From NCBI RefSeq assembly GCF_964355755.1, contig NC_092677.1, forward strand, positions 24,353,175-24,417,174: DNA of 64,000 nt, read 5' to 3'. A program made the translations under genes and the position numbers. Shown in pieces: positions 22,861 through 59,183 of this stretch; within the stretch, counting starts at the first letter, position 1, and the number at the start of each line of letters is the position of its first letter. Under the pieces are notes generated by a model. It made no database searches. It was not told where the DNA came from and saw only the letters and a list, made by a program, of their open reading frames with translations. Origin of the DNA: Antedon mediterranea. Lineage: Eukaryota > Animalia > Echinodermata.

Positions 22861-25800
22861 ATGTTCATCTTTAAAGACGTAAGAATACTAGTACTAGGCC
22901 TAGTAATAGTACTATTGCCATTCTGTCTCACAAATAAAGTCAAACCTGGTATGTATTAAATGCATTTAAAATTTAGAACTAAAGTGACTGCTTAAACATG
23001 AACTATCATCACTATCTAAGTAGGCCTGTGTCTGAATAATCATGGGCAATGTCAGATATTTTAGATACTATTATCTGTGGGACCGTCTTCTCACAGTAGG
23101 TTGGTGATCATGGACATTCATCTATTTCTGCATTCTTATAATAACTATATCTTTTGTTCATACTTTATGTTGGGTCATTTTTTTTTACTAATTAATACTG
23201 TACTGTGTAAAACATAGATGTTTCGGTTTTTGCCGATTGTTCTCAGGTTTTGTGAAATTGTCAAAACTTTATACGGATAAACCGCATCTCAAGGTATTCA
23301 ATCTTGTTTCAAAGTGTTTTTCTGTTAGTGTTCAAATGTCCACGATACAACAGTATTGACAACACGTAACATTTTTTTTTAGTGTTTGGTTCTGTTAGTG
23401 TTAAAGTTTCCATCATACAACAGTGTTGAAAGCGCGTAGCATTTTGTTAGTGTTTGAATACACGATCAGGTTTTTGCATCGTGTTTGATTCTGTCAGTGT
23501 CCATGTTTCCACCATACAACAGTGTTGAATACATGATCAGGTTTTTGCATCGTTATTGGTTCTGTCAGTGTCCATGTTTCCACCATACAGCAGTGTAACA
23601 TTAATCTGTATCCTGTGGTATGCAGCTGCAATAACGTATCACTGTGTGCGTGTATGGCGAAGTCTATACGTTACCGGAAACAGTCGAATTCCTTTGTTTT
23701 AAAGAAAATCTTATTTTGGAACTTATTAAATTATTATTAACAAGGCCATAATATGCATGGATGCAGTCGCGTGCTCAAGTTAGTGTTTACCAACCAACCG
23801 ACATAGCGAGTGACTCAAAAGCTAAGCATTAAACTATTGGGAACTCATGATACAATACATTCCAATTAATTGTTTATGATGCTTTCTGTTTTCTTTATTT
23901 TTAATTTTAAGGTTTTAACCATATTTTATGTTGAATATAAAATTTTAAGAGGATAATTATTAATAACAGTTTTGCAAATTTGCCATCTATGATTTATTCT
24001 AAAAGTTGTATTCATGTAAATATAATGTTTGATTTACATACCTACTGTACAAAATAATTTTGGACTGATGTTTTTTTTTTATTGGTGAACATCGACGAAT
24101 AGTTCTGTATATAGACTTCACAAACAACATTTTCAGTTTATCCACAGGGTTGCTATGACCACATATATAGGCCTACTGGTGTAGTTTGTTCGCCATGGAA
24201 CATGAATACAGTTGCAGAACTCATTAAGTATAATAAACAAAGCACCATATTAATATTGTAAGTATTGCAGTGTACGTACGGTTGCTTTTAAGTAAATACA
24301 GAATATACTTTGTTTATTTCTCAATGTAAAGGGTATTGCTAAACCGAAAACCTTCAAAAACATAGCAAACCCCATCGAACCAACATAAACAAGTAGAATT
24401 AATTTCGTCACTTTGACGAATTGTAGGTGATCATTGTGATAACAAAATATATTAAAATATGAGCGCAAAGCGTTGTAGTGCTGCTGAGTTGTGTATTGTG
24501 TAGTCTAGTCATAGAATATATAAAGTATATAATATACACGGGTCCCATAGTATGTTCTAATGGCATGATGACGTTATCCAAATCAAAGAAAAAAAATTAC
24601 AGAATTGTAAATCGTCCAAAATAGACCATGATTTATTACTGAGATTTTTTCAAAAACACGGGTGAAATGGACTGATACTGCTAAGGGAGAGAAATGCCTA
24701 ATAAAGTCTACTTTAGTTATAAAATAAGAAAAAAAAGCATTGTATTTTGTAATTATCACACTCTAGGCCCTTAACGTTTATTTTCTCTTCGTTTAGCAAT
24801 TATTTACCGAGAAGCACAAAATGATGTATACAAGTGTTATTTTCAGAAATCTTAATAAATGTGATAATTTATTGTAAAGCGTTTACAACCAGCCTATATT
24901 TAAATTAAATTTCAATAATCTAAAAACGGTTCATTGTTATATTTAGCAGCATAGTAGGCCTGTGGTGTAATGAATAAAACAAGAATACACACAATATGTA
25001 TACATAGATATGTGTGCTTTTTTAATGAAATCAAATCGTTCAATCAAATAACAGGAAATATTCAGGTGTTATATAGTATGGTATAATTAATACTATACCT
25101 ATACCTATGAAGTTAATCATAATGTTATTTACTGCACAATATACACATATTTAAAAAAAAATATGTTAAAACTAGCACATAAATATAGGTCATGCTTATT
25201 GTGTCATATTCTAAATTAAATTCGTCAATATTAAACTGTATGAAAGCAAACTTGTGCCTGAAACTGAAAAGGCTTTCCGTTGCAAAATGTAAATTAAATG
25301 GTAAGTTTAGCAATTATTTGCTAAGCACAAAATGATGTATAAAAGTGTTATTGTCAGAAATATTAATAAAGATGATAATTCATTGCAAAGCATCCACATC
25401 AGTCTATATTTTATCATTTGAATAATTAATAAAATGTTGATTGTCTTTAAATTGTTTAATGAATTATTTAGCAGCACAATATGGTATAATTAATAAAACT
25501 TTCATATTTCACAACTTTTAAGGGAATTGCAAAACAATCAAATTATTGCATTGACAGAGAATGCATTCGCTGGTTTGAAATCATTGGAATGGCTGTAAGT
25601 GACATTGTTTATGTTTACATATCTATGACGTTAATCATAATGTTATTTACTGCACAATATACAAATATTTACAAAACAATATGTTAAAGTAAACTTGAGC
25701 CTGAAACTGTAAAGGCTTTCCGTTGCAAAATGTAAATTAACTAGTAAGTTTAGCAATTATTTGCTGATATGCTCACAATGATGTATAAAAATGTTATTGT

Positions 25801-28800
25801 CAGAAATCTTAATAAAGGTGATATATTCATTGCAAAGCATCGACATCAACCTATATTTATTAATTTGAATTAAAAATAAATGTTGATTGTCTTGTAATTG
25901 TTTAATGAATAATTTAGCAGCATAATATGGTATAATTAATAAAACGATATCTTTTACATTTTACAACTTTGAAGGAGGTTGGAGAACAATCAAATTAGTA
26001 CATTGACAGAGAATGCATTCGCTGGTTTGGAATCATTGGAATGGCTGTAAGTGACGTTGTTTATGTTTACATACCTATGACGTTAATCCTAATGTTATTT
26101 ACTGCACAATATACACATATTTAAAAACAATATTTTAAAACTAGTACATATACATATAGGTCAATGCTTATTGTGTCATATTCAAAATGAAATTCCTCAA
26201 TACTGTATGAAAGAAAACTTGAGCCTGAAACTGTAAAGGCTTTACGTTGCCAAAATGGTGAGTTTAACAATTATTTGCTGATAAGCACACAATGATGTAT
26301 AAAAAGTGTTATTGTCAGAAATATTAATAAATGTGATAATTCATTGCTAAAAATCCAAATCAGTCTATATTTATTCATTTGAATAATTAAAAAAGAATGT
26401 TGATTGTCTTTTAATTGTTTAATGAATTATTTAGCAGTATAGTATGTAGTATCATGAATACAACTTTGTTTTATATTTCACAACTTTGAAGGTACTTGAA
26501 AAACAATCAAATTAGTACATTGACAGCCAATGCATTCGCCGGTTTGAAATCATTGGAAAGCCTGTAGGTGACGTTGTTTATGTTTACCTATGACGTTAAT
26601 AAAAATGTTATTTACTCCACAATATACACATATTTTATACACAATGGAGAGTTTAGCAATTATTTTCTGTTGTGTTATTGTCAGAAATCTTAATAAAGGT
26701 GATAATTCATTGCAAAAAATCCATATCAGTCTATATTTAATTTATATTTCAATAATCTAAAAATGGTTCATTGTTATATTTAATAAGTATTTAGCAGCAT
26801 AGTAGGCCTGTGGTGTAATGAATAAAACAACAATACATACAATATGTATACATAAATATATGATGTGTGCTTTTTTAATGAAATCAAATCATTCAATCAA
26901 ATAACAGGAAATATTCAGGTGTTATTGGTATAATTAATAAAAACTATCTTTTACATTTCATAATTTTGAAGGTGGTTGTTCAACAATCAAATTAGTACAT
27001 TGGCAGAGAATGCATTTGCTGGTTTGGAATCATTGGAAAGGCTGTAAGTGTTATTCTTCATCATATCCACATACGTACTTTCATATATATCATGTTTTAT
27101 ACACATTCAAGCTAGGGGGCATATACACATTCAAGCTAGGGGGCCTACACACATTGTACACACATCGTAACCTTATTAGGTGAAATACTTTTGTCGAAAT
27201 GGATTATTTTCATAGTAATTCATTGTTAGAAAGAGTAAATCAAACTTAGTATTTTATTAGTTTGTTACCAAACTAGTTAACAAATGTAACATTAGAGGAA
27301 TATTTAGCAGTGTATAGCATATGAATCAAATTTAAGTAAGTAAGCTATAAGATTTAATAAGAAATTGTTAATTTTATTCGTATTTATTCATTCATTTCGA
27401 CACACACTAGCCCTGGTATTTATTCTTACAAAGTTATTACAATTTAATCTCACTCTTATTTGCTGTGACGAAATAACTCTCCTCATATACACACCTATTT
27501 AAAAACAATATTTTAAAACTAGTACATAAATATAGGCCAATTAAATTGTGTCATATTCAAAATAAAATTCCTCAACTGTATAGCAAATTTGAGCCTGAAA
27601 CTGTAAAGGCTTTATGAAAATAAGTAAATAGCCTTTACATACCCTATTTTAAATTCTAAAAAGTCTGAAAAAATCTTCAAGTGCAGTCGTGATCGATTAG
27701 TGTATTTGGTAAACTGTATCAAGTGAATTTGTGCCTGAAACTGACAAGGCTTTCCGTTGTAAAATGTAAATTAAATTGTGAGTTTAGCAATTATTTGCTG
27801 GTATTCACACAATGTATTATTGCTATATTGTCAGAAATATTATTAGGTAAAGTTAATTTATGGCCTATATTATTTTAATTAATCCAATAATCTAAAAATC
27901 AGTCATTGTCTTCAATTGAATATTTGGCTAAAACTATATCTTTTACATTTAACAACTTTTAAGGGGTTTGCACTACAATCAAATTAGTACATTGACAGCC
28001 AATACATTCGCTGGTTTGGAATCGTTGAAAGAACTGTAAGTGACATTGATTATGTTTACATACCTATGACGTTAATCCTAATGTTATTTACTCCACAATA
28101 TACACATATTTAAAAAACAATATTTTTAAACTAGTACATAAATATATAGGCCAATGCTTATTGTGTCATATTCAAAATGAAATTCGTCAATATTAAACTG
28201 TATGAAAGCAAACTTGAGCCTGAAACTGTAAAGGCTTTCCGTTGCAAAATGTAAATTAAATGGCGAGTTTAGCAATTATTTTCTGTTAATCACACAATGA
28301 TGTATAAATGTGTTATTTTCAGAAATCTTAATAAATGTGATAATTCATTGCAAAGCATCCACATCAGTCTATATTTATTTATTTTAATAACTAAAAAAAT
28401 GTTGATTGTCTTTTAATTGTTTAATGAATTATTTAGCAGCACAATATGGTATAATTAATAAAACTGTCATATTTCACAACTTTTAAGGTGGTTACAAAGC
28501 AATCAAATTAGAACATTGACAGAGAATACATTCGCTGGTTTGGAATCATTGGAAGGACTGTAAGTGACATTGATTATGTTTACATACCTATGACGTTAAT
28601 CCTAATGTTATTTACTCCACAATATACACATATTTAAAAAACAATATTTTTAAACTAGTACATAAATATATAGGCCAATTCTTATTGTGTCCTATTCAAA
28701 ATGAAATTCCTCAATATTAAACTGTATGAAAGCAAACTTGAGCCTGAAACTGTAAAGGCTTTCCGTTGCAAAATGTAAAATAAATGGCGAGTTTAGCAAT

Positions 28801-31800
28801 TATTTTCTGTTAATCACACAATGATGTATACATGTGTTATTGTCAGAAATCTTAATAAATGTGATAATTCATTGCAAAAAATCCACATCAGTCTATATTT
28901 AATTTATATTTCAATAATCTAAAAATGGTTCATTGTTATATTTAATAAGTATTTAGCAGCATAGTAGGCCTGTGGTGTAATGAATAAAACAACAATACAT
29001 ACAATATGTGATGTAAGATATATGATGTGTGCTTTTTTAATGAAATCAAATCGTTCAATCAAATAACAGGAAATATTCAGGTGTTATATAGTATGGTATA
29101 ATTAATAAAACTATCTTTTACATTTCATAATTATGAAGGTGGTTGTACAGCAATCAAATTAGTACATTGACAGCCAATGCATTCGCTGGTTTGGAATCAT
29201 TGAAATACCTGTAAGTGACGTTGTTTATGTTTACCTATGACGTTAATTATAATGTTATTTACTGCACAATATATACATATTTAAAAACAATAGTTTAAAA
29301 CTAGTACATACAAATAGGCCAATGCTTATTGTGTCATATTCAAAATGAAATTCTCCTATATTAAACTGTATGAAAGCAAACTTGAGCATGAAACTGAAAA
29401 GGCTTTCCGTTACAAAATGTAAATTAAATTGTGAGTTTAGCAATTATTTGCTGATATGCTCACAATGATTGTATAAATGTGTTATTGTCAGAAATATTAA
29501 TAAAGGTGATAATTGATTGCAAAGCATTAACATCATCCTATATTTATTTATTTGAATAATTAAAAAAAATGTTGATTGTCTTTTAATTGTTTAATGAATT
29601 ATTTAGCAGTATAATATGGTATAATTAATAAAACTTTCATATTTCACAACTTTGAAGGAGGTTGCAGTACAATCAAATTAGAACATTGACAGAGAATGCA
29701 TTCGCTGGTTTGAAATCATTGGATAGTCTGTAAGTGACGTTGTTTATGTTTACATACGTATGACATTAATCCTAATGTTATTTACATATAAAAAATCCAC
29801 ATCAGTCTATATTTAATTTATATTTCAATAATCTAAAAATGGTTCATTGTTATATTTAATAAGTATTTAGCAGCATAGTAGGCCTGTGGTGTAATGAATA
29901 AAACAACAATACACACAATATGTATACATAGATATATGGTGTGTGCTTTTTTAATGAAGTAAAATCATTCAATCAAATAACATGAAATATTCAGGTGTTA
30001 TATAGTATGGTATAATTAATAAAAACTATCTTTTACATTTCATAATTTTGAAGGTGGTTGCAAAACAATCAAATTAGTACATTGACAGAGAATGCATTTG
30101 CTGGTTTGGAATCATTGAAAGACCTGTAAGTGTTATTCTTCATCATATCCACATACGTACCTCCATACTGTATATCATGTTATATACACATTACACACAT
30201 TGTACATATACATCGTAACCTTGGTTACTTTTGTCAACATGGATTATTTTCATAATAATTCATTATTGAGTAAATCAAAATTATAGTATTTATTAGTTTG
30301 TTACCAATATTAGGAATATTTAGCATTGTTATAGCCTGTGAATCAAATTTAAGTTAGTTAGCTATAAGATTTAAAAAGACATTTTTAATTTTATTCGTAT
30401 TTATTCATTCATTTTGACACACCAGCCCTGGTTTTTATACTTACAAAGTTATTACAATTTAATCTCACTCTTATTTGTTGTGACGAAATACCTCTCCTCA
30501 AAGAATTGACCAATACATTAACTATTAGCTTAATTAAACAGGTATTTACAGGACAACAATATAACTACTATTGATCAAGGCGCCTTCTCTGTTTTTGCCT
30601 CATCACTTGGAAAACTGTAAGTAATTTATTCTGAAATTCATATGCAGTTTCTCGAAATAATTAATCACTTCAATTAGGTACTTTTCTTATGCTATAAACA
30701 TGTTATCCAAGAAAAAACGGTATCAACAGGATAGGTTTACATACATTTTTTAAACATGGGTAAATTTTTTCATTCATTATTGTATCTGGCTCATTCCATG
30801 GAGTTGAACATGAGAAAGCATTTTAAAAGTTAATCTAACAAGTAGAACAAACAACTTTTTATATAATTAAACATATAAGTAGAAGGATTATCTTAAGTGC
30901 CGACGGTGATAAAAATATTATTTTGAGACTACATTGCATCAGTTAGACACTAAATTGATTGTGGTATACCTTCATTAATACGATATCACTAAAACGACAT
31001 CGGTGCTATCCAAATGAGACATACTCGTAGATATTTAGTTACATGTGAGCTACACTCATTGGCACTGATTTGATATTTGTTTCCATATTTATTTTTTTTT
31101 ACAGAGACATCAGACGCAACAATTTACAAGTTTACAGAGAAAGTACTTTTGAAGAATTGAAATATATAACAGAATTGTAAGTATTATGTCGGATTTAGAA
31201 ATTCTTTATATTCATTAAATGATATTTTTATTTTGTTTTAACACAGTTACCAATTCCACATGCATGCCGACAGTGGCCCAACAAAATTGTTTATGTAGGC
31301 CTACAGCTTTTAGGTTATTTTAAATTTCTCCTTCACTTCTATCTTTTAAATTGGTCGTACACGTCATACTTTTACTATACGAGTAGATTTGATTGGCTGT
31401 AAAGCAGTCGTTATTCCACCTGTTATAGAACTAAAACCATTATAAACATTGTTATAGTAGGCTACTACTGTATTTAACAACTTCCATTAAATTCAATTGT
31501 TTTTTTAACATAGATATTCAGATTTGTTTCGTCTCTGTTGTGTTGTTGGAGAAATTGAAGTATGTGAGCCTACTGATGCTTTTGCGTCCTGCGCTGACTT
31601 ACTAAAGAGAGAAGTTCTTAGGATATTGATGATAGTTATTGGACTGTCATCTTTTATCGGTAACTTGATTGTCATCATATCGCGAAGGATAAACAAAGAA
31701 AATAGGTCTACAGTTGATTCTATTCTACTCACTAATCTTGCCGCGGCTGACTTGCTGATGGCAATTTATTTGCTGATCATCGCAGGTGCAGATATACACT

Positions 31801-32498
31801 ACAGAGGAAGGTACGCGAAGGTTGCCAGCGAATGGAAAAACAGCTTTCTCTGCTCTTTTTCCGGTGCTATTTCAACACTGTCTGGGCAGTGTTCCGTGTC
31901 AACCTTGATGGTTATGAGTATTAACCGTGCTATAAACATCGTCTATCCATTCAGCACCAAACGGCTCAAACGTACGAAATGCAAAATTATCATCGGTATT
32001 GCTTGGCTGGTATGGCTTTTTGTTAGTTTCCTTCCACTGGTAGCTAACAAGTCACATGTCGGCATACCATATTTTGGCGAGAACTACTACGGAAAACAAA
32101 GTGTGTGTCTCGCGTTGCCACTAACACGACATCGATTACCAGGCTGGGAGTACGCCACGGCCATATTCATCGCATTCAATGGCTTGGGTTTTTTTGTTAT
32201 CACAGCAAGTTATTTGACGATTTTCCTCTCCGTTAAGAGATCTGCAATCACGGCTAACAGAATGCAGAGACGAGAAGAGGAAATCAAAATGGCCGTGAAA
32301 CTAGGGTTTATTGTTTTCACCGATTTCTGTTGCTGGTTTCCCATCATAGTAATGGGAATTTGTTCAGAGATGGAGTGGTGGAGAATTCCTGATGATATAT
32401 ACGTTTGGGCAGCAACATTTATAATTCCCATTAACTCATCAGTAAACCCATATCTTTACACAATTATTTATATGTGTAAAAGCGAGCGTAGGCCATAA
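22861..32498 (+). CDS. LRR-containing GPCR copy 1 (RXFP/GRL101-like 7TM), apparently intact, ~674 aa. Exons 22861-22948, 23247-23293, 24148-24257; variable LRR exons 25523-25594, 25975-26046, 26492-26563, 26972-27043, 27964-28035, 28488-28559, 29139-29210, 29658-29729, 30054-30125; fixed LRR exons 30542-30616, 31105-31176; hinge+7TM 31514-32498
   Basis: Signal peptide MFIFKDVRILVLGLVIVLLPFCLT; Cys cap GCYDHIYRPTGVVCSPW; LRRs xLxxNQISTLTENAFAGLESLxxL; hinge CC...CEPTDAFASCADLL; TM motifs GNLIVI, NLAAADLLMAIYL, CLALP, IVFTDFCCWFPI, PINSSVNPYLY. All GT-AG and in phase (2025 nt). Exons 1-2 are less certain than the rest. Confidence 0.88.
23310..23597. repeat. Intronic minisatellite, ~60-70 bp unit (also ~36300-36580 and ~50130-50415)
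   Basis: Repeated TTCTGT(T/C)AGTGT...TCCA(C/T)CATACAACAGTGTTGAA units. Confidence 0.75.
24790..30130 (+). repeat. Array of exon+intron LRR cassettes, copy 1 (9 exons)
   Basis: ~400-1000 bp units sharing intron blocks (GAGCCTGAAACTGTAAAGGCTTTCCGTTGCAAAATG; TTTAGCAATTATTT; GGTATAATTAATAAAAC), each ending in a 72-nt exon. Confidence 0.95.
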
Positions 32499-35400: not shown

Positions 35401-37779
35401 ACAAATATTATTTGTATTTAAAAAACATGAAAAATGAATAATAATTAAAAAAAAATACTTTTTTTAGATCTAATTTTTTGAAAAATTATTATGTGACATT
35501 AAAATGGCATATTAAAAAAAAATATTTAAAACATTATTTTTTCAGGGGGACAATAATCTTTATATTAAAAAAATTAGTTACAGCAGTAAAATACACTCTA
35601 TACATGATGACGTGTGAAGCTCCACAAATCGAAATAATGGATTATCAAAAGAAAAACAATGTTCAATAATTAAATCATATTACACCCACAAACAATAATT
35701 GAATGCATCTGGTAATGTGATTTAAGTGATTGTCATCTTAAAAATGAATGAAGAAATCATAAAATAATAAGACCTATGCATTATACTAGAGAGCTTTTCA
35801 CAAACTAACGGTTCATTTCTATTACCGATTTAATACGTATGTAAGAAGATGTTCATCTTTAAAGACGCAAGAATACTAGTACTAGGCCTAGTACTAGAAC
35901 TATTGCCATTCTGTCTCACAAATAAAGCCAGACCTGGTATGTATTAAATGCATTTAAAATTTAGAACTAAAGTGACTGCTTAAACATGAACTATCATCAC
36001 TATCTAAGTAGGCCTGTGTCTGAATAATCATGGGCAATGTCAGATATTTTAGATACTATTATCTGTTCTGGGACCGTCTTCTCACATCTATTTCTGCATT
36101 CTTATAATGTATATAATAATATTATATAATATATATATAATGTTCATACTTTATGTTGGGTCATTTTTTTTACCAATTAATACTGTAACTGTGTAAAACA
36201 TAGATGTTTCGGTTTTTGCCGATTGTTCTCAGGTTTTGTGAAATGTCAAAACTTTATACGGATAAACCGCATCTCAAGGGATTCAATCTTGTTTCAAAGT
36301 GTTTTTCTGTTAGTGTTCAAATGTCCACGATACAACAGTATTGACAACACGTAACATTTTTTTTAGTGTTTGGTTCTGTTAGTGTTAAAGTTTCCATCAT
36401 ACAACAGTGTTGAAAGCGCGTAGCATTTTGTTAGTGTTTGAATACACGATCAGGTTTTTGCATCGTGTTTGATTCTGTCAGTGTCCATGTTTCCACCATA
36501 CAACAGTGTTGAATACACGATCAGGTTTTTGCATCGTGTTTGGTTCTGTCAGTGTCCATGTTTCCACCATACAGCAGTGTAACATTAATCTGTATCCTGT
36601 GGTATACAGCCGCAATAACGTATCACTGTGTGCGTGTATGGCGAAGTCTATACGTTACCGGACACAGTCGAATTCCTTTGTTTTAAAGAAAATCTTATTT
36701 TGGAACTTATTAAATTATTATTAACAAGGCCATGTGCATGGCTGCTGTCGCTTGCTCAAGTTAGTGTTTACCAACCAACCGACCGACATAGTGAGCGCGT
36801 TGCACGCGACTCAAAAGCTAAGCATTAAACTATGGGGAACTCATGATACAATACATTCCAATTAATTGTTTATGATGCTTTCTGTTTTCTTTATTTTTAA
36901 TTTTAAGGTTTTAACCATATTTTATGTTGAATATAAAATTTTAAGAGGATAATTATTAATAACAGTTTTGCAAATTTGCCATCTATGATTTATTCTAAAA
37001 GTTGTATTCATGTAAATATAATGTTTGATTTATACATACCTACTGTACAAAATAATTTTGGACTAATGTTTTTTTTTATTGGTGAACATCGACGAATAGT
37101 TCTGTATATAGACTTCACAAACAACATTTTCAGTTTATCCACAGGGTTGCTTTGAACACATATATCCTGGTTTAGTTTGTTCGACATGGAACATGAATAC
37201 AGTTGCAGAACTCATTAAGTATAATAAACAAAGCACCATATTATCATTGTAAGTATTGCAGTGTACGTACGGTTGCTTTTAAGTAAATACAGAACATACT
37301 TTGTTTATTTCTCAATGTAGAGGGTATTGCTAAACCGAAAACCTTCACAAACATAGCAAACCCCATCGAACCAACATAAACAAGTAGAATTAATTTCGTC
37401 ACTTTGACGAATTGTAGGTGATCATTGTGATAACAAAATATATTAAAATATGAGCGCAAAGCGTTGTAGTGCTGCTGAGTTGTGCCTATTGTGTAGTCTA
37501 GTCATAGAATATATAACGTATATAATATACACGGGTCCCATATATGTTCTAATGGCATGATGACGTTATCCAAATCAAAGAAAAAAAATTACAGAATTGT
37601 AAATCGTCCAAAATAGACCGTGATTTATTACTGAGATTTTTTCAAAAACACGGGTGAAATGGACTGATACTGCTAAGGGAGAGAAATGCCTAATAAAGTC
37701 TACTTTAGTTATAAAATAAGAAAAAAAGCATTGTATTTTGTAATTCTCACACTCTAGGCCCTTAACGTTTATTTTCTCT

Positions 37780-40700
37780 TCGTTTAGCAATTATTTACCG
37801 AGAAGCACAAAATGATGTATACAAGTGTTATTTTCAGAAATCTTAATAAATGTGATAATTTATTGTAAAGCGTTTACAACCAGCCTATATTTAAATTAAA
37901 TTTCAAAAATCTAAAAACGGTTCATTGTTATATTTAGCAGCATAGTAGGCCTGTGGTGTAATGAATAAAACAACAATACACACAATATGTATACATAGAT
38001 ATGTGTGCTTTTTTAATGAAATCAAATCGTTCAATCAAATAACAGGAAATATTCAGGTGTTATATAGTATGGTATAATTAATAAAACTATCTTTTACATT
38101 TCATAATTATGAAGGTGGTTGTACAGCAATCAAATTAGTACATTGACAGCCAATGCATTCGCTGGTTTGGAATCATTGAAATACCTGTAAGTGACGTTGT
38201 TTATGTTTACCTATGACGTTAATTATAATGTTATTTACTGCACAATATATACATATTTAAAAACAATAGTTTAAAACTAGTACATACAAATAGGCCAATG
38301 CTTATTGTGTCATATTCAAAATGAAATTGTCCTATATTAAACTGTATGAAAGCAAACTTGAGCCTGAAACTGTAAAGGCTTTCCGTTGCAAAATGTAAAT
38401 TAAATGGCGAGTTTAGCAATTATTTTCTGTTAATCACACAATGATGTATAAATGTGTTATTTTCAGAAATCTTAATAAAGGTGATAATTCATTGCAAAAA
38501 ATCCACATCAGTCTATATTTATTCATTTTAATAATTAAAAAAATGTTGAATGTATTTTAATTGTTTAATGAATTATTTAGCAGTATAATATGGTATAATT
38601 AATAAAACTGTCATATTTCACAACTTTTAAGGTGGTTGCAAGGCAATCAAATTAGTACATTGACAGCCAATACATTCGCTGGTTTGGAATCATTGGAAGA
38701 ACTGTAAGTGACATTGATTATGTTTACATACCTATGACGTTAACCGTAATGTTATTTACTGCACAATATACACACATTTAAAAACATTATTTTAAAACTA
38801 GTACATAAATATAGGCCAATGCTTATTGTGTCATTATTCAAAATGAAATTCGTCAATATTAAACTGTATAAAAGCAAACTTGAGCCTGAAACTGTAAAGG
38901 CTTTCCGTTTCAAAATGTAAATTAAATGGTGAGTTTAGCAATTATTTTCTGTTAATCACACAATGATGTATAAATGTGTTATTGTCAGAAATCTCAATAA
39001 ATTAATTCATTGCAAAAAATCCACATCAGTCTATATTTATTCATTTTAATAATTAAAAAAATGTTGAATGTATTTTAATTGTTTAATGAATTATTTAGCA
39101 GTATAATATGGTATAATTAATAAAACTGTCATATTTCACAACTTTTAAGGTGGTTGCAAGGCAATCAAATTAGTACATTGACAGCCAATACATTCGCTGG
39201 TTTGGAATCATTGGAAGAACTGTAAGTGACATTGATTATGTTTACATACCTATGACGTTAACCGTAATGTTATTTACTGCACAATATACACACATTTAAA
39301 AACATTATTTTAAAACTAGTACATAAATATAGGCCAATGCTTATTGTGTCATTATTCAAAATGAAATTCGTCAATATTAAACTGTATAAAAGCAAACTTG
39401 AGCCTGAAACTGTAAAGGCTTTCCGTTTCAAAATGTAAATTAAATGGTGAGTTTAGCAATTATTTTCTGTTAATCACACAATGATGTATAAATGTGTTAT
39501 TGTCAGAAATCTCAATAAATTAATTCATTGCAAAAAATCCACATCAGTCTATATTTAATTTATATTTCAATATTCTAAAAATGGTTCATTGTTATATTTA
39601 ATAAGTATTTAGCAGCATAGTAGGCCTGTGGTGTAATGAATAAAACAACAATACATACAATATGTGATGTAAGATATATGATGTGTGCTTTTTTAATGAA
39701 ATCAAATCGTTCAATCAAATAACATGAACTTTTCAGGTGTTATATAGTATGGTATAATTAATAAAAACTATCTTTTACATTTCATAATTTTGAAGGCAGT
39801 TGTACAACAATCAAATTAGTACATTGACAGCCAATGCATTTGCTGGTTTGGAATCATTGAAAGAACTGTAAGTGTTATTCTTCATCACATCCACATACGT
39901 ATTTCCATATATATCATGTTTTATACACATTACACATATTTAAAACTAGTACATAAATATAGGACAATGCTTATTGTGTCATATTCTAAATTAAATTCCT
40001 CAATATTAAATTGTATGAAAGCAAACTTGAGCCTGAAACTGTAAAGGCATTCCGTTGCAAAATGTAAATTAAATGGCGAGTTTAGCAATTATTTGCTGAT
40101 ATGCTCATAATGATTGTATAAATGTGTTATTGTCAGAAATCTTAATAAATGTGATAATTCATTGCAAAAAATCCACATCAGTCTATATTTAATTTATATT
40201 TCAATAATCTAAAAATGGTTTATTGTTATATTAAATAAGTATTTAGCAGCATAGTAGGCCTGTGGTGTAATGAATAAAACAACAATACACACAATATGTA
40301 TACATAGATATATGGTGTGTGCTTTTTTAATGAAATCAAATCGTTCAATCAAATAACATGAAATATTCAGGTGTTATATAGTATGGTATAATTAATAAAA
40401 ACTATCTTTTACATTTCATAATTATGAAGGTGGTTGGAAAACAATCAAATTAGTACATTGACAGCCAATGCATTCGCTGGTTTGGAATCATTGAAATACC
40501 TGTAAGTGACGTTGTTTATGTTTACCTATGACGTTAATTATAATGTTATTTACTGCACAATATATACATATTTAAAAACAATAGTTTAAAACTAGTACAT
40601 ACAAATAGGCCAATGCTTATTGTGTCATATTCAAAATGAAATTGTCCTATATTAAACTGTATGAAAGCAAACTTGAGCCTGAAACTGTAAAGGCTTTCCG

Positions 40701-43700: not shown

Positions 43701-43990
43701 GGTTCATTGTTATATTTAATAAGTATTTAGCAGCATAGTAGGCCTGTGGTGTAATGAATAAAACAACAATACACACAAAATGTATACATAGATATATGGT
43801 GTGTGCTTTTTTAATGAAGTCAAATCATTCAATCAAATAACATGAAATATTCAGGTGTTATATAGTATGGTATAATTATTAAAAACTATCTTTTACATTT
43901 CATAATTTTGAAGGTTGTTGCAAAACAATCAAATTAGTACATTGACAGAGAATGCATTTGCTGGTTTGGAATCATTGAAAGACCTGTAAG
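37780..43990 (+). repeat. Array of exon+intron LRR cassettes, copy 2 (11 exons), with a 2315-bp four-cassette duplication and a 518-bp single-cassette duplication
   Basis: Exon starts 38632/40947, 39150/41465, 39796/42111 and 40430/42745 differ by 2315 and encode identical peptides; 38632/39150 differ by 518. Confidence 0.95.
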
Positions 43991-45350: not shown

Positions 45351-46335
45351 ATATTCAGATTTGTTTCGTCTCTGTTGTGTTGTTGGAGAAATTGAAGTAT
45401 GTGAGCCTACTGATGCTTTTGCGTCCTGCGCTGACTTACTAAAGAGAGAAGTTCTTAGGATATTGATGATAGTTATTGGACTGTCATCTTTTATCGGTAA
45501 CTTGATTGTCATCATATCGCGAAGGATAAACAAAGAAAATAGGTCTACAGTTGATTCTATTCTACTCACTAATCTTGCCGCGGCTGACTTGCTGATGGCA
45601 ATTTATTTGCTGATCATCGCAGGTGCAGATATACACTACAGAGGAAGGTACGCGAAGGTTGCCAGCGAATGGAAAAACAGCTTTCTCTGCTCTTTTTCCG
45701 GTGCTATTTCAACACTGTCTGGGCAGTGTTCCGTGTCAACCTTGATGGTTATGAGTATTAACCGTGCTATAAACATCGTCTATCCATTCAGCACCAAACG
45801 GCTCAAAGGTACGAAATGCAAAATTATCATCGGTATTGCTTGGCTGGTATGGCTTTTTATTAGTTTCCTTCCACTGGTAGCTAACAAGTCACAGGTCGGC
45901 ATACCATATTTTGGCGAGAACTACTACGGAAAACAAAGTGTGTGTCTCGCGTTGCCACTAACACGACATCGATTACCAGGCTGGGAGTACGCCACGGCCA
46001 TATTCATCGCATTCAATGGCTTGGGTTTTTTTGTTATCGCAGCAAGTTATTTGACGATTTTCCTCTCCGTTAAGAGATCTGCAATCACGGCTAACAGAAT
46101 GCAGAGACGAGAAGAGGAAATCAAAATGGCCGTGAAACTAGGGTTTATTGTTTTCACCGATTTCTGTTGCTGGTTTCCCATCATAGTAATGGGAATTTGT
46201 TCAGAGATGGAGTGGTGGAGAATTCCTGATGATATATACGTTTGGGCAGCAACATTTATAATTCCCATTAACTCATCAGTAAACCCATATCTTTACACAA
46301 TTATCTATATGTGTAAAAGCGAGCGTAGGCCATAA
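45351..46335 (+). CDS. Hinge + 7TM terminal exon of LRR-GPCR copy 2 (open)
   Basis: ORF 45361..46335 differs from copy 1 at only 4 of 324 aa (R>G, V>I, H>Q, T>A). Confidence 0.9.
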
Positions 46336-49657: not shown

Positions 49658-52600
49658 ATGTTCATCTTTAAAGACGTAAGAATACTAGTACCAGGCCTAG
49701 TAATAGTACTATCGCCATTCTGTCTCACAAATAAAGTCAAACCTGGTATGTATTAAATGCATTCAAAATTTAGAACTTAAGTGACTGCTTAAACATGAAC
49801 TATCATCACTATCTAAGTAGGCCTGTGTCTGAATAATCATGGGCAATGTCAGATATTTTAGATACTATTATCTGTTCTGGGACCGTCTTACCCAGTACCG
49901 TTTTGATCGTACGATTAATCGGGAAACCACCTCACGACATCTATTTCTGCATTCTTATAATAACTATATCTTTTGTTCATACTTTATGTTGGGTCATTCT
50001 TTTTTTACTAATTAATACTGTACTGTGTAAAACAGATGTTTCTGTTTTTGCCGATTGTTCTCAGGTTTTGTGAAATTGTCAAAACTTTATACGGATAAAC
50101 CGCATCTCAAGGTATTCAATCTTGTTTCAAAGTGTTTTTCTGTTAGTGTTCAAATGTCCACGATACAACAGTATTGACACAAGACGTAACATTTTTTTTT
50201 TAGTGTTTGGTTCTGTTAGTGTTAAAGTTTCCATCATACAACAGTGTTGAAAGCGCGTAGCATTTTGTTAGTGTTTGAATACACGATCAGGTTTTTGCAT
50301 CGTGTTTGATTCTGTCAGTGTCCATGTTTCCACCATACAACAGTGTTGAATACACGATCAGGTTTTTGCATCGTGTTTGGTTCTGTCAGTGTCCATGTTT
50401 CCACCATACAGCAGTGTAACATTAATCTGTATCCTGTGGTATACAGCCGCAATAACGTATCACTGTGTGCGTGTATGGCGAAGTCTATACGGTACCGGAC
50501 ACAGTCGAATACCTTTGTTTTAAAGAAAATCTTATTTTGGAACTTATTAAATTATTATTAACAAGGCCATATGCATGGATGCAGTCGCGTGCTCAAGTTA
50601 GTGTTTACCAACCAACCGACACAGTGTTGCACGCGACTCAAAAGCTAAGCATTAAACTATGGGGAACTCATGATACAATACATTCCAATTAATTGTTTAT
50701 GATGCTTTCTGTTTTCTTTATTTTTAATTTTAAGGTTTCAACCATATTTTATGTTGAATGTAAAATTTTAAGAGGATAATCATTAATAACAGTTTTGCAA
50801 ATTTGCCATCTATGATTTATTCTAAAAGTTGTATTCATGTAAATATAATGTTTGATTTATACATACCTACCGTACAAAATAATTTTGGACTAATGTTTTT
50901 TTTATTGGTGAACATCGACGAATAGTTCTGTATATAGACTTCACAAACACAATTTTCAGTTTATCCACAGGGTTGCTCAGGCCAAAATTTATTTCCTGGT
51001 GTAGTTTGTTCACCATGGAACATGAAAACAGTTGCAGAACTCATTAAGTATAATAAACAAAGCACCATATTAACATTGTAAGTATTGCAGTGTACGTACG
51101 GTTGCTTTTAAGTAAATACAGAACATACTTTGTTTATTTCTCAATGTAGAGGGTATTGCTAAACCGAAAACCTTCACAAACATAGCAAACCCCATCGAAC
51201 CAACATAAACAAGTAGAATTAATTTCGTCACTTTGACGAATTGTAGGTGATCATTGTGATAACAAAATATATTAAAATATGAGCGCAAAGCGTTGTAGTG
51301 CTGCTGAGTTGTGCCTATTGTGTAGTCTAGTCATAGAATATATAACGTATATAATATACACGGGTCCCATATATGTTCTAATGGCATGATGTAGTTATCC
51401 AAATCAAAGAAAAAAAATTACAGAATTGTAAATCGTCCAAAATAGACCATGATTTATTACTGAGATTTTTTCAAAAACACGGGTGAAATGGACTGATACT
51501 GCTAAGGGAGAGAAATGCCTAATAAAGTCTACTTTAGTTATAAAATAAGAAAAAAAGCATTGTATTTTGTAATTCTCACACTCTAGGCCCTTAACGTTTA
51601 TTTTCTCTTCGTTTAGCAATTATTTACCGAGAAGCACAAAATGATGTATACAAGTGTTATTTTCAGAAATCTTAATAAATGTGATAATTTATTGTAAAGC
51701 GTTTACAACCAGCCTATATTTAAATTAAATTTCAAAAATCTAAAAACGGTTCATTGTTATATTTAGCAGCATAGTAGGCCTGTGGTGTAATGAATAAAAC
51801 AACAATACACACAATATGTATACATAGATATGTGTGCTTTTTTAATGAAATCAAATCGTTCAATCAAATAACAGGAAATATTCAGGTGTTATATAGTATG
51901 GTATAATTAATACTATACCTATACCTATGAAGTTAATCATAATGTTATTTACTGCACAATATACACATATTTTTAAAAAAATATGTTAAAACTAGCACAT
52001 AAATATAGGCCATGCTTATTGTGTCATATTCTAAATTAAATTCGTCAATATTAAACTGTATGAAAGCAAACTTGTGCCTGAAACTGAAAAGGCTTTCCGT
52101 TGCAAAATGTAAATTAAATGGTAAGTTTAGCAATTATTTGCTAAGCACAAAATGATGTATAAAAGTGTTATTGTCAGAAATCTTAATAAATGTGATAATT
52201 CATTGCAAAGCATCCACATCAGTCTATATTTTATCATTTGAATAATTAATAAAATGTTGATTGTCTTTAAATTGTTTATTGAATTATTTAGCAGCACAAT
52301 ATGGTATAATTAATAAAACTTTCATATTTCACAACTTTTAAGGGAATTGCAAAACAATCAAATTATTGCATTGACAGAGAATGCATTCGCTGGTTTGAAA
52401 TCATTGGAATGGCTGTAAGTGACATTGTTTATGTTTACATATCTATGACGTTAATCATAATGTTATTTACTGCACAATATACAAATATTTACAAAACAAT
52501 ATGTTAAAGTAAACTTGAGCCTGAAACTGTAAAGGCTTTCCGTTGCAAAATGTAATTAACTAGTGAGTTTAGCAATTATTTGCTGATATGCTCACAATGA

Positions 52601-55600: not shown

Positions 55601-58600
55601 ATCATTGGAAATTCTGTAAGTGACGTTGATTATGTTTACAAACCTATAAAGTTAATCATAATGTTATTTACTCCACAATATACACAGATTAAAAAACAAT
55701 ATTTTTAAACTAGTACATAAATATATAGGCCAATGCTTATTGTGTCATATTCTAAATGAAATTCCTCAACATTAAACTGTATGAAAGCAAACTTGAGCCT
55801 GAAACTGTAAAGGCTTTCCGTTTCAAAATGTAAAATAAATTGTGAGTTTAGCAATTATTTTCTGTTAATCACACAATGATGTATAAATGTGTTATTTTCA
55901 GAAATCTTAATAAATGTGATAATTCATTGCAAAAAATCCACATCAGTCTATATTTAATTTATATTTCAATAATCTAAAAATGGTTCATTGTTATATTTAA
56001 TAAGTATTTAGCAGCATAGTAGGCCTGTGGTGTAATGAATAAAACAACAATACACACAAAATGTATACATAGATATATGGTGTGTGCTTTTTTAATGAAG
56101 TCAAATCATTCAATCAAATAACATGAAATATTCAGGTGTTATATAGTATGGTATAATTATTAAAAACTATCTTTTACATTTCATAATTTTGAAGGTTGTT
56201 GCAAAACAATCAAATTAGTACATTGACAGAGAATGCATTTGCTGGTTTGGAATCATTGAAAGACCTGTAAGTGTTATTCTTCATCATATCCACATACGTA
56301 CCTCCATACTGTATATCATGTTATATACACATTACACACATTGTACATATACATCGTAACCTTATTTTGTTACTTTTGTCAACATGGATTATTTTCATAA
56401 TAATTCATTATTGAGTAAATCAAAATTATAGTATTTATTAGTTTGTTACCAATATTAGGAATATTTAGCCTGTGAATCAAATTTAAGTTAGTAAGCTATA
56501 AGATTTAAAAAGAAATTTTTAATTTTATTCGTATTTATTCATTCATTTTGACACACCAGCCCTGGTTTTTATTCTTACAAAGTTATTACAATTTAATCTC
56601 ACTCTTATTTGTTGTGACGAAATACCTCTCCTCATAGAATTGACCAATATACATTAACTATTAGCTTAATTAAACAGGTATTTACAGGACAACAATATAA
56701 CTACTATTGATCAAGGCGCCTTCTCTGTTTTTGCCTCATCACTTGGAAAACTGTAAGTAATTTATTCTGAAATTCATATGCAGTTTCTCGAAATAATTAA
56801 TCACTTCAATTAGGTACTTTTCTTATGCTATAAACATGTTATCCAAGAAAAAGCGGTATCAACAGGATAGGTTTACATACATTTTTTAAACATGGGTAAA
56901 TTTTTACATTCATTATTGTATCTGGCTCATTCCATGGAGTTGAACATGAGAAAACATTTTAAAAGTTAACAACTTTTTATATAATTAAACATATAAGTAG
57001 AAGGATTATCTTAAGTGCCGACGGTGATAAAAATATTATTTTGAGACTACATTGAATCAGTTAGACACTAAATTGATTGTGGTATACCTTCATTAATACG
57101 ATATCACTAAAACGACATCGGTGCTATCCAAATGAGACATATTCGTAGATATTTAGTTACATGTGAGCTACACTCATTGACACTGATTTGATATTTGTTT
57201 CCATATTTTTTTTTTTTTTACAGAGACATCAGACGCAACAATTTACAAGTTTACAGAGAAAGTACTTTTGAAGAATTGAAATATATAACAGAATTGTAAG
57301 TATTATGTCGGATTTAGAAATTCTTTATATTCATTAAATGATATCTTTATTTTGTTTTAACACAGTTACCAATTCCACATGCATGCCGACAGTGGCCTAA
57401 CAAATTGTTTATGTAGGCCTACAGCTTTTAGGTTATTTTAAATTTCTCCTTCACTTCTATCTTTTAAATTGGTCGTACACGTCATACTTTTACTATACGA
57501 GTAGATTTGATTGGCTGTAAAGCAGTTGTTATTCCACCTGTTATAGAACTAAAACCATTATAAACATTGTTATAGTAGGCTACTACTGTATTTAACAACT
57601 TCCATTAAATTCAATTGTTTTTTTAACATAGATATTCAGATTTGTTTCGTCTCTGTTGTGTTGTTGGAGAAATTGAAGTATGTGAGCCTACTGATGCTTT
57701 TGCGTCCTGCGCTGACTTACTAAAGAGAGAAGTTCTTAGGATATTGATGATAGTTATTGGACTGTCATCTTTTATCGGTAACTTGATTGTCATCATATCG
57801 CGAAGGATAAACAAAGAAAATAGGTCTACAGTTGATTCTATTCTACTCACTAATCTTGCCGCGGCTGACTTGCTGATGGCAATTTATTTGCTGATCATCG
57901 CAGGTGCAGATATACACTACAGAGGAAGGTACGCGAAGGTTGCCAGCGAATGGAAAAACAGCTTTCTCTGCTCTTTTTCCGGTGCTATTTCAACACTGTC
58001 TGGGCAGTGTTCCGTGTCAACCTTGATGGTTATGAGTATTAACCGTGCTATAAACATCGTCTATCCATTCAGCACCAAACGGCTCAAAGGTACGAAATGC
58101 AAAATTATCATCGGTATTGCTTGGCTGGTATGACTTTTTATTAGTTTCCTTCCACTGGTAGCTAACAAGTCACAGGTCGGCATACCATATTTTGGCGAGA
58201 ACTACTACGGAAAACAAAGTGTGTGTCTCGCGTTGCCACTAACACGACATCGATTACCAGGCTGGGAGTACGCCACGGCCATATTCATCGCATTCAATGG
58301 CTTGGGTTTTTTTGTTATCGCAGCAAGTTATTTGACGATTTTCCTCTCCGTTAAGAGATCTGCAATCACGGCTAACAGAATGCAGAGACGAGAAGAGGAA
58401 ATCAAAATGGCCGTGAAACTAGGGTTTATTGTTTTCACCGATTTCTGTTGCTGGTTTCCCATCATAGTAATGGGAATTTGTTCAGAGATGGAGTGGTGGA
58501 GAATTCCTGATGATATATACGTTTGGGCAGCAACATTTATAATTCCCATTAACTCATCAGTAAACCCATATCTTTACACAATTATCTATATGTGTAAAAG

Positions 58601-58616
58601 CGAGCGTAGGCCATAA
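49658..58616 (+). pseudogene. LRR-GPCR copy 3 with premature stop. Exons 49658-49745, 50065-50111, 50971-51077; 7 variable LRR exons (starts 52343, 52915, 53431, 54392, 55026, 55544, 56195); 56678-56752, 57224-57295, 57632-58616
   Basis: TGG>TGA at 58131-58133 in TM4 splits the 7TM ORF into 57642..58133 and 58221..58616. The signal peptide also has L>P and L>S changes. Confidence 0.8.
54032..54346. mobile_element. 315-bp palindromic insertion unique to copy 3
   Basis: Absent from the matching introns of copy 2. Long hairpin (ACAAATAATGAATGTTT...AAAGGTTATATCAAC / GTTGATATAACCTTT...AAACATTCATTATTTGT); AGGTGTTATATAGTAT repeated at 54016 and 54331. Confidence 0.85.
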
Positions 58617-59183
58617 AGCTGACATTCCTCGTGCATTCTCAGTTTATTTATTTACTACATTTATTTATTCAATTTTGATTCACAAGGGTAGCTCTAACAG
58701 GTGAACGAGTACAGCTGTCTTGAAGAGGCCCTTTTAAAAACATTATACAATTATACAAAAAGACATTCAAACATCACATTACAAGTAGATCCATAAAGCC
58801 TGTTCCTGTCGATCGTTAAGTTGCGTTGAGTTGCGCTAAGTTGCGTTGACATATTCAACGATTTGACAGGAAAAGGGGGTAAAAAATCAACGTTACAAAT
58901 CGTTAAAGTCTGAAATCATAAAATTACAAGTAGATTCATAAAGTTAAAATTCAGGTTTTTAAAAAGTTAAAACATTACAAGTTAAAATATTAAAATTTAC
59001 GGAGTAATTTATTTTTGCAAACTACTCCATCAAGAAACTAAAAGAAAATTAATACATTTGAGTTTTGAACTCTGCACTTTTATTTTTTACTTGTTATTCT
59101 TGATTCTAGTGTTTTTATCAGGTATTATTCGGAGTTTGTATTGGGTACGCTGTGACGGGTATGTATATATAGGAATTATAGGT

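What the first reader, a model, noticed from the sequence alone, without database searches (positions are those of the whole stretch)
24148..24257. Hypervariable N-terminal Cys-cap loop with frame-preserving indels in all three copies
The cap exon is 110, 104 (37145-37248) and 107 nt (50971-51077): GCYDHIYRPTGVVCSPW, GCFEHIYPGLVCSTW and GCSGQNLFPGVVCSPW. The residue before the final L is I/S/T. Lengths differ only by multiples of 3 while flanking introns are nearly identical. This supports the exon as real and marks a second diversified surface.
Basis: seen in the sequence. Interest (0 to 1): 0.7.

Follow-up and report, generated by a model that had tools for sequence, protein, structure and literature searches.

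The report
Hypervariable finger on feather-star receptors
Three neighbouring receptor genes, probably from a feather star, differ far more in one short cysteine-bounded stretch than in the DNA around it, and this stretch is predicted to form a finger at the edge of the binding surface that likely helps the receptors recognise fast-changing targets.

Summary
The variable loop is real. The window holds three tandem LRR-GPCR genes (signal peptide, cap, 11/13/9 LRR exons, 7TM); the 7TM exon is 96% identical to an Antedon mediterranea GRL101-like model. Between two fixed cysteines the copies carry 11, 9 and 10 residues and differ at 15-33% of sites, against 0-3% in 300 nt of flanking intron; contigs of a second organism give a fourth length (12). 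Relatives show that the cap is an LRRNT that lost cysteines 1 and 3; the loop lies between cysteines 2 and 4, where lamprey VLRC carries a (conserved) loop projecting over the concave face. In-frame indels alone are weak evidence (P about 0.09; 0.03 with the second organism), dN/dS is not testable on so few codons, copy 3 has a stop codon, and no spliced RNA was available. Best reading: a diversifying ligand-contact finger that complements hypervariable LRR strands in an LDLa-less, Antedon-expanded type C LGR family.

The parts
22861..22948 (+). Copy 1 exon 1: predicted signal peptide, 88 nt, phase-1 donor
   Evidence: ATG, hydrophobic stretch, GTATGT donor; conserved in 3 of 3 copies
24137..24257 (+).
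   Evidence: only open acceptor among 6 AGs tested in this copy; P-x-x-C matches CPxxC of relative P0005
24154..24186 (+). Copy 1 hypervariable loop, 11 codons between the two Cys codons (24151-24153, 24187-24189)
   Evidence: 12 codons in organism B contigs
24253..24255 (+). I/S/T codon: x position of the first LxxLxLxxN strand, same position as the most variable codon of the 72-nt exons
25523..31176 (+). Copy 1 LRR exons: nine 72-nt exons (25523-30125), one 75-nt (30542-30616), one 72-nt (31105-31176)
31514..32498 (+). Copy 1 hinge plus 7TM exon; whole gene 662 codons, open
   Evidence: Pfam 7tm_1 E 1e-30; 96% to A. mediterranea P0055
35849..35936 (+). Copy 2 signal-peptide exon (V to E in the hydrophobic core)
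37134..37248 (+). Copy 2 cap exon (115 nt); loop 37151-37177, 9 codons
38115..45014 (+). Copy 2 LRR exons: eleven 72-nt, one 75-nt, one 72-nt; four of them lie in a perfect 2315-nt tandem duplication
45351..46335 (+). Copy 2 hinge plus 7TM exon; whole gene 708 codons, open
49658..49745 (+). Copy 3 signal-peptide exon (two L to P changes)
50960..51077 (+). Copy 3 cap exon (118 nt); loop 50977-51006, 10 codons
52343..57295 (+). Copy 3 LRR exons: seven 72-nt, one 75-nt, one 72-nt
57632..58616 (+). Copy 3 hinge plus 7TM exon with an in-frame TGA at 58131-58133 (probable pseudogene)

Best explanation
The stretch is the variable-length loop between the two remaining cysteines of a reduced N-terminal LRR cap in three tandem LRR-GPCR genes, and it is predicted to form a hairpin finger at the edge of the concave binding face, where selection for new binding specificities likely drives its rapid change. 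Shown: gene anatomy, loss of cap cysteines 1 and 3 relative to related receptors, loop lengths of 9, 10, 11 (window), 12 (second organism) and 21 (sister paralog), substitution excess over flanking introns, and matching variability at the strand x positions of the LRR exons. Inferred: the two cysteines form the C2-C4 disulfide and close a beta1-beta2 hairpin, as in VLRC and GPIb-alpha; the hairpin tip joins the LRR strand residues in one ligand surface; ligand binding is passed through the type C hinge to the near-invariant 7TM domain. Unequal crossing-over and gene conversion likely keep introns and the signalling half alike, while the loop and strand codons are kept different by selection. 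The ligand class is a guess: variable non-self molecules (immune surveillance) about 45%, environmental or conspecific chemical cues about 30%, gamete or allorecognition and other about 25%.
For: Loop versus flank divergence 15-33% versus 1-2%. Copies 2 and 3 are identical over 301 nt just downstream and differ by 8 substitutions and a gap in the loop. In organism B (runs X5, X6: two samples, one study) one contig spans the whole exon and carries 7 substitutions and 3 extra nt in the loop against 11 substitutions in the other 258 nt (P 0.002, or about 0.05 after a window correction); read by hand from the tables, every altered codon changes the residue and the frame is kept. A contig of run X1 matches the 3' half of the exon (4 differences in 65 nt) with an unrelated 25-nt loose end starting at the loop. 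No purely silent codon difference was seen in the three window loops (codons). Relatives: 11 fetched proteins show the canonical CPxxCxC...C..W cap with 8-12 residues between C2 and C4; P0005 aligns to the window caps at P, C2, C4, S, W, N; the sister paralog P0056 (SH-aLRT 99) has the two-cysteine form with 21 residues between them. AlphaFold models place strands at both cysteines with the loop between (window cap pLDDT 58; P0056, loop pLDDT under 50). VLRC: disulfides C28-C39 and C37-C52, loop 41-48 between beta1 and beta2 protrudes toward the concave surface; GPIb-alpha has a similar protrusion used for ligand contact (PMC3900441, passages and section 12; PMC9084892, passages). The five strand x positions carry the most residue diversity in 15 distinct LRR exons, while the 7TM exon differs at only 5 of 981 nt between copies 1 and 2.
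Against: Formal dN/dS inside the loop is not above 1 in a convincing way (NG86 pN 0.41 versus pS 0.25, and 0.31 versus 0.24; at LRR x positions 0.43 versus 0.44), because multi-base codon changes dominate and sites are few. Clustered non-coding patches of equal density exist (21429, 21603, 23070-23150); only one of them is partly explained by a repeat remnant. Signal-peptide and 7TM exons also show mostly replacement changes (7:0 and 4:1), copy 3 has a stop codon and copies 2 and 3 have helix-breaking or charged residues in the signal peptide, which points to relaxed constraint on at least some copies. The geometry is argued from VLRC and GPIb-alpha, not from a confident model of this protein, and the VLRC loop is conserved rather than variable. 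In GPIb-alpha the finger makes few specific contacts (PMC9084892, passage). No ligand is known.
Confidence: 0.6

Rival explanations
1. The loop is an unconstrained surface linker, freed by loss of the C1-C3 disulfide, and its differences come from clustered mutation or patch repair of the kind also seen in the introns; frame is kept only by purifying selection.
For: Non-coding windows reach 13-16 substitutions in 33 columns at two to three places per pair; 13 of 43 intron indels are multiples of 3; pN is not clearly above pS; relaxed-looking changes in the signal peptides and a stop in copy 3.
Against: Relaxed constraint cannot exceed the neutral rate, and the loop exceeds nearby introns several-fold in three pairs and in organism B. 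Only one non-coding patch in 3.9 kb differs among all three copies to this degree, and its copy-3 version is 87% like the end of a repeat elsewhere in the window. The changes stop at the cysteine codons, and the LRR strand codons show the same pattern.
Confidence: 0.15
2. The loops are old variants moved between paralogs by short-tract gene conversion, or left behind while conversion homogenised the flanks; they act as exchangeable cassettes and little new mutation is selected in place.
For: The copies are mosaics (copy 1 is the outlier upstream, copy 2 in part of intron 1); identical LRR exons are shared between copies (27 exons, 15 distinct); a contig of run X1 has a near-identical 3' half-exon with an unrelated loop. 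The copy-3 loop is hardly alignable to the others.
Against: Copy 1, copy 2 and the organism B loop remain alignable and differ by stepwise replacements and single-codon gaps; no silent changes accompany them; no donor for any loop was found elsewhere in the window. Retaining old loops against homogenisation would itself need selection, so this rival differs from the best reading in mechanism more than in function.
Confidence: 0.13
3. The loop changes to escape a pathogen or toxin that binds the receptor, not to bind new ligands; the receptor keeps one endogenous ligand, such as an insulin-like peptide proposed for GRL101.
For: GRL101 was proposed to be an IGF receptor (PMC8286064, passages); exposed loops are common escape sites (own knowledge).
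Against: The concave strand positions that would bind a fixed hormone are the most variable ones, LRR number varies from 9 to 13, the LDLa modules are absent, and that paper finds one gene each for the crinoid peptides, against at least 25 A. mediterranea proteins in this clade.
Confidence: 0.08
4. The array is mostly dead or partly an assembly artefact, and the exon is not used.
For: Stop codon in copy 3; a perfect 2315-nt duplication in copy 2; copies 2 and 3 are 99.75% identical over 4860 nt; only the copy-1 loop was laid from run X1; the closest RefSeq model starts in intron DNA and lacks signal peptide and cap.
Against: Copies 1 and 2 are open from ATG to stop with canonical splice sites at all 14 and 16 exons; the exon is intact in a second organism; misassembly of near-identical DNA does not create three different in-frame loops.
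Confidence: 0.04

Closest known systems
Type C LGRs: RXFP1/2 (C1) and GRL101 (C2)
   Same: LRR ectodomain, short cysteine hinge and rhodopsin-type 7TM; nested among LDLa-bearing crinoid GRL101-like proteins in the 7TM tree; best solved relative of P0001 by sequence is RXFP1.
   Different: No LDLa module; at least 25 A. mediterranea relatives on 8 contigs rather than one ortholog (PMC8286064 passages report a single crinoid GRL101); variable LRR number, hypervariable strands and a two-cysteine cap with a variable loop.
Lamprey VLRC N-terminal cap protrusion
   Same: Loop at the same place in the cap, between beta1 and beta2 and inside the C2-C4 disulfide, next to a variable concave LRR face built from 24-residue modules (PMC3900441, passages and section 12).
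   Different: The VLRC loop is conserved in length and sequence and its cap keeps four cysteines; VLRs are assembled somatically and have no 7TM domain. Here the loop is the variable element, each module is a germline exon with its own splice sites, and the receptor is a GPCR.
Platelet GPIb-alpha beta-finger
   Same: Flexible finger in the N-terminal LRR cap that reaches toward the concave side and touches the ligand (PMC3900441 and PMC9084892, passages). That it is closed by a single disulfide is recalled, not from a call.
   Different: Single-copy, single-pass receptor with one fixed ligand; the finger makes few specific contacts; no paralog-level diversification.
Lineage-specific LRR-GPCR expansions: 41 Trichoplax-specific LGRs; octopus group 3 adhesion GPCRs
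   Same: Expanded GPCR families with LRR ectodomains (PMC9545775 and PMC6408891, passages); branch-level positive selection and tandem clusters reported for the octopus groups.
   Different: Other lineages and, for octopus, another GPCR class; the passages read describe no hypervariable cap loop, and the octopus site test found no selected site.

Membership tests
Type C LGR (RXFP/GRL101 group) | Rhodopsin-family 7TM domain | tested here: met
   Pfam 7tm_1 E 1e-30 and 2e-30 for copies 1 and 2
Type C LGR (RXFP/GRL101 group) | LRR ectodomain directly before a short cysteine-containing hinge | tested here: met
   11, 13 and 9 LRR exons; the hinge of the 96%-identical P0055 aligns without long gaps to LDLa-bearing relatives
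Type C LGR (RXFP/GRL101 group) | 7TM phylogeny inside the GRL101-like clade | tested here: met
   Quick IQ-TREE tree, 57 of 98 fetched proteins plus 3 window copies: window copies lie in a 36-row crinoid clade (SH-aLRT 100) whose outer rows carry LDLa. No vertebrate RXFP rows were included; the careful search did not finish.
GRL101 / type C2 LGR | Multiple N-terminal LDLa modules | tested here: not met
   No LDLa motif in six frames and no tblastn hit of LDLa-bearing relatives outside LRR and 7TM regions; signal peptide joins the cap directly
RXFP / type C1 LGR | Single N-terminal LDLa module | tested here: not met
Type C LGR (RXFP/GRL101 group) | Activation by an insulin/relaxin-like peptide | not testable with these tools
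   no ligand data
Canonical LRRNT cap | Four cysteines CPxxCxC...C | tested here: not met
   two of four kept (C2, C4) in 3 of 3 copies; all four in P0005 and 10 further relatives
Canonical LRRNT cap | Profile match to Pfam LRRNT | tested here: inconclusive
   no Pfam hit for 3 of 3 caps, but none for the four-cysteine caps of P0005 and P0001 either
Canonical LRRNT cap | beta1-beta2 hairpin that extends the concave sheet | tested here: inconclusive
   strands at both cysteines in two low-confidence models; several structural alignments of the P0056 model to TSHR, FSHR and LGR4 start at residues 94-97, within beta2; no coordinates were inspected
Variable lymphocyte receptors (VLR) | Somatic assembly from LRR donor cassettes into an incomplete germline gene | not testable with these tools
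   needs single-cell or somatic DNA; the germline genes here are complete exon arrays, which argues against it
Variable lymphocyte receptors (VLR) | LRRCT plus stalk, no 7TM domain | tested here: not met
   7TM domain present
Variable lymphocyte receptors (VLR) | Variability concentrated at concave strand positions of 24-residue modules | tested here: met
   entropy 1.3-2.8 bits at the five x positions versus 0-1.05 at the other 18

The most novel reading that the evidence does not exclude
Feather stars have turned a hormone-type GPCR into a germline-encoded, antibody-like receptor family: exchangeable LRR exons supply a variable concave face, loss of one cap disulfide freed a CDR3-like finger that varies in length (9-21 residues) and sequence, and a near-invariant 7TM half couples recognition of changing non-self ligands directly to G-protein signalling.
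Probability: 0.25. Interest if true: 0.85.

Novelty: new variant of a known kind. Interest (0 to 1): 0.55.

Why it matters
If the loop and the strand positions form one diversified binding surface, this is a recognition-receptor design (VLR-like face, variable N-cap finger, GPCR output) in the echinoderm class whose immune and chemosensory receptors are least described. It gives a testable handle: a 9-12 residue loop that can be swapped between otherwise near-identical receptors. It also shows that current annotation hides the feature: only 3 of 25 A. mediterranea models in the clade include a cap, and the literature read here counts one GRL101 in crinoids. If the loop is merely unconstrained, the finding reduces to an exon correction in a tandem array.

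Tried and rejected
No whole genome is held for the window, so paralogous cap exons could not be collected. No RNA holder was listed; run X8, a guessed RNA run, covered intron stretches thinly and showed no splice joint: no evidence either way on expression. Summed contig depth is several times higher over the 3' half of the exon than over the loop in X1, X5 and X6, which would fit further paralogs with unlike loops, but depth here is no copy number. The MAFFT count of 9 substitutions for copy1-copy2 was replaced by 4. Cap profile searches: PDB sequences gave two chance hits, Pfam none, ESM Atlas no usable hit for the window cap and generic LRR clusters for the P0005 cap region, and the 5.8-billion-protein search returned only P0056, which was in the query. 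Alignments A2, A4 and A5 misplaced the short caps and were not used further. No local template (duplication or inverted copy above 8 nt within 500 nt) explains the loops. Fold searches of the P0056 model returned LGR structures and say little about the cap. Ten literature searches found no description of a hypervariable or expanded LRR-GPCR family in crinoids; the library lacks most subscription papers and no supplements were read, so gene-family tables in crinoid genome papers may mention the expansion. Look-ups of earlier findings by place, sequence and first word set returned nothing.

Full report
Setting. The window is AT-rich animal DNA. A self-comparison shows three tandem units of about 13 kb, each ending in a long open frame with a rhodopsin-type 7TM domain. 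A scan for AG-72 nt-GT exons with an LRR motif found 9, 11 and 7 such exons per unit plus a 75-nt exon; with a further 72-nt exon and a signal-peptide exon the models read 662 and 708 codons without a stop for copies 1 and 2, and 613 codons with one TGA in the 7TM exon for copy 3. The 7TM exon is 96% identical to an Antedon mediterranea GRL101-like model and 64-81% to 13 further A. mediterranea clusters, so the source is inferred to be an Antedon feather star. In a quick maximum-likelihood tree of 7TM domains (57 of 98 fetched proteins; unnamed records and two short rows left out; SH-aLRT only) the three copies sit in a clade of 28 rows, 25 of them A. mediterranea proteins from 8 contigs, next to an Anneissia expansion, within a crinoid clade whose outer members carry LDLa modules. 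The window has no LDLa.

The observation. Lengths 110, 104 and 107, the quoted peptides and the I/S/T codon are as stated. The 300 nt of intron on each side differ at 0-2.7% between copies; the loop between the cysteine codons differs at 10/30, 8/27 and 4/27 sites plus one in-frame gap per pair (MAFFT gave 9/27 for the last pair, a codon-aware placement 4). Fisher tests against the flanks give 6e-9, 1e-8 and 5e-4. These overstate the case, because non-coding DNA in the same alignment has clustered patches of up to 13-16 substitutions in 33 columns. Only one such patch, at about 23070-23150, separates all three copies to the same degree, and its copy-3 version is 87% like the end of a repeat at 59178-59230. 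The frame argument is weak by itself: 13 of 43 non-coding indels are multiples of 3, so two in-frame events have P about 0.09 and three about 0.03; it shows coding constraint at best, not diversifying selection.

Correction of the exon. The signal-peptide exon ends in phase 1. The exon is then 24137-24257, 37134-37248 and 50960-51077 (121, 115, 118 nt) and begins VYPQGC. The added P-x-x-C matches CPxxC in the cap of the relative P0005. No spliced read was available to settle this.

Evidence from outside the window. Contigs from two samples of a second organism (one study) span the whole exon with 7 substitutions and 3 extra nucleotides in the loop, none listed between 24186 and about 24250, and 11 substitutions over the other 258 nt of the longer contig (P 0.002; about 0.05 with a window correction). 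Read by hand, the two samples give the same loop, 12 residues long and in frame, with every altered codon changing its residue. A contig from run X1 matches the 3' half of the exon at 61 of 65 nt and continues upstream into 25 unrelated letters that begin at the loop, as a further paralog with another loop would.

What the loop is. Eleven fetched relatives have a canonical LRRNT cap, CPxxCxC...C..W, with 8-12 residues between cysteines 2 and 4; the starfish forms continue with WN like the window caps. The window caps keep cysteines 2 and 4 and have lost 1 and 3. In VLRC the cap disulfides are C28-C39 and C37-C52, that is 1-3 and 2-4 (PMC3900441, passages), so one whole disulfide was lost; that pairing in the window proteins is inferred. 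The sister paralog P0056 (81% 7TM identity, SH-aLRT 99) has the same two-cysteine cap with 21 residues between them, although its model looks partly chimeric at the N-terminus. AlphaFold puts strands at both cysteines, the loop between them and a helix after WN, in the isolated window cap (pLDDT 58) and in P0056 (loop under 50): consistent but low in confidence. [quoted passage not shown]

Context of variation. Among 27 tandem 72-nt exons (15 distinct), residue diversity is highest at the five x positions of LxxLxLxxN (1.3-2.8 bits, against 0-1.05 elsewhere), and the I/S/T codon of the cap exon is the equivalent of the most variable of them. The last two LRR exons are identical in all copies and the 7TM exon differs at 5 of 981 nt or fewer. 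The copies are mosaics of one another and share identical LRR exons, which indicates unequal crossing-over and conversion. NG86 ratios do not show dN above dS convincingly, in the loop or at the x positions, because most changes replace two or three bases of a codon. Signal-peptide and 7TM differences are also mostly replacements, and copy 3 is probably a pseudogene.

How it most likely works. Shown: anatomy, cysteine loss, length series 9-10-11-12-21, excess divergence, co-variation with strand positions. Inferred: a disulfide-closed hairpin whose tip borders the concave face; selection for new specificities with conversion homogenising the rest; signalling through an unchanged hinge and 7TM half. 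I give this 0.6, an unconstrained loop with patch mutation 0.15, cassette-like conversion 0.13, escape with a fixed hormone ligand 0.08, a dead or artefactual array 0.04. The ligand class is not shown. GRL101-like receptors were reported as enriched in sensory tentacles of a starfish and a snail (PMC6267866, PMC13403566, passages), which keeps a chemosensory role open; the rate and placement of change resemble immune receptors (own knowledge).

Comparison and novelty. The genes work like type C LGRs but fail the LDLa criterion of both C1 and C2 (PMC4079206, PMC8286064, passages); they are best called LDLa-less derivatives of crinoid GRL101-like receptors. They are not VLRs. Expanded LRR-GPCR families are in print for Trichoplax (41 specific LGRs, PMC9545775, passages) and octopus adhesion GPCRs (PMC6408891, passages). 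Ten searches found no report of this family or of a hypervariable N-cap loop on a GPCR; all eight papers were read as passages or single sections, no supplements. Unchecked notes of this scan describe hypervariable LRR exons in octopus GPCRs, a possible parallel that I did not test. Verdict: a real feature and a new variant of a known kind; interest 0.55, held down by the lack of expression data, the small sample and the borrowed geometry.

Noticed in passing
window 25523-30125, 38115-43985, 52343-56266: Arrays of 72-nt LRR exons (9, 11, 7) in repeated intron units, with residue changes concentrated at the concave strand positions and identical exons shared between copies; the larger system to which the cap loop belongs.
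   Followed up: partly
window 38127-42958: Perfect 2315-nt tandem duplication holding four LRR exons in copy 2: very recent, or an assembly artefact.
   Followed up: partly
window 58131-58133: TGG to TGA in the 7TM exon of copy 3, in a region otherwise 99.8% identical to copy 2.
   Followed up: partly
window 35849-35936 and 49658-49745: Signal-peptide exons carry only replacement differences (7:0 between copies 2 and 3), including V to E and L to P in the hydrophobic core.
   Followed up: partly
window 59184-64000: A unit of about 960 nt repeated in tandem and inverted orientation at 92-99.9% identity; its end resembles the intron-1 patch of copy 3 at about 49890-49944. Probably a mobile element or satellite.
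   Followed up: partly
window 25215-25289 and 52035-52109: The first 25 residues of RefSeq model P0055 map to intron DNA, so the annotation of the closest relative misses signal peptide and cap; 22 of 25 A. mediterranea models in the clade lack a recognisable cap.
   Followed up: partly
window 23690-23887 and 24284-24481: Very high contig depth in all four runs marks short high-copy repeats in the introns on both sides of the cap exon.
   Followed up: no
protein P0005 (A. mediterranea, residues 1-340): A long N-terminal region without Pfam match precedes the four-cysteine cap in this relative's model; it may be a fused neighbour or another ectodomain.
   Followed up: no
window 2620-3110: Overlapping low-complexity open frames on both strands, palindrome-like; not examined.
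   Followed up: no
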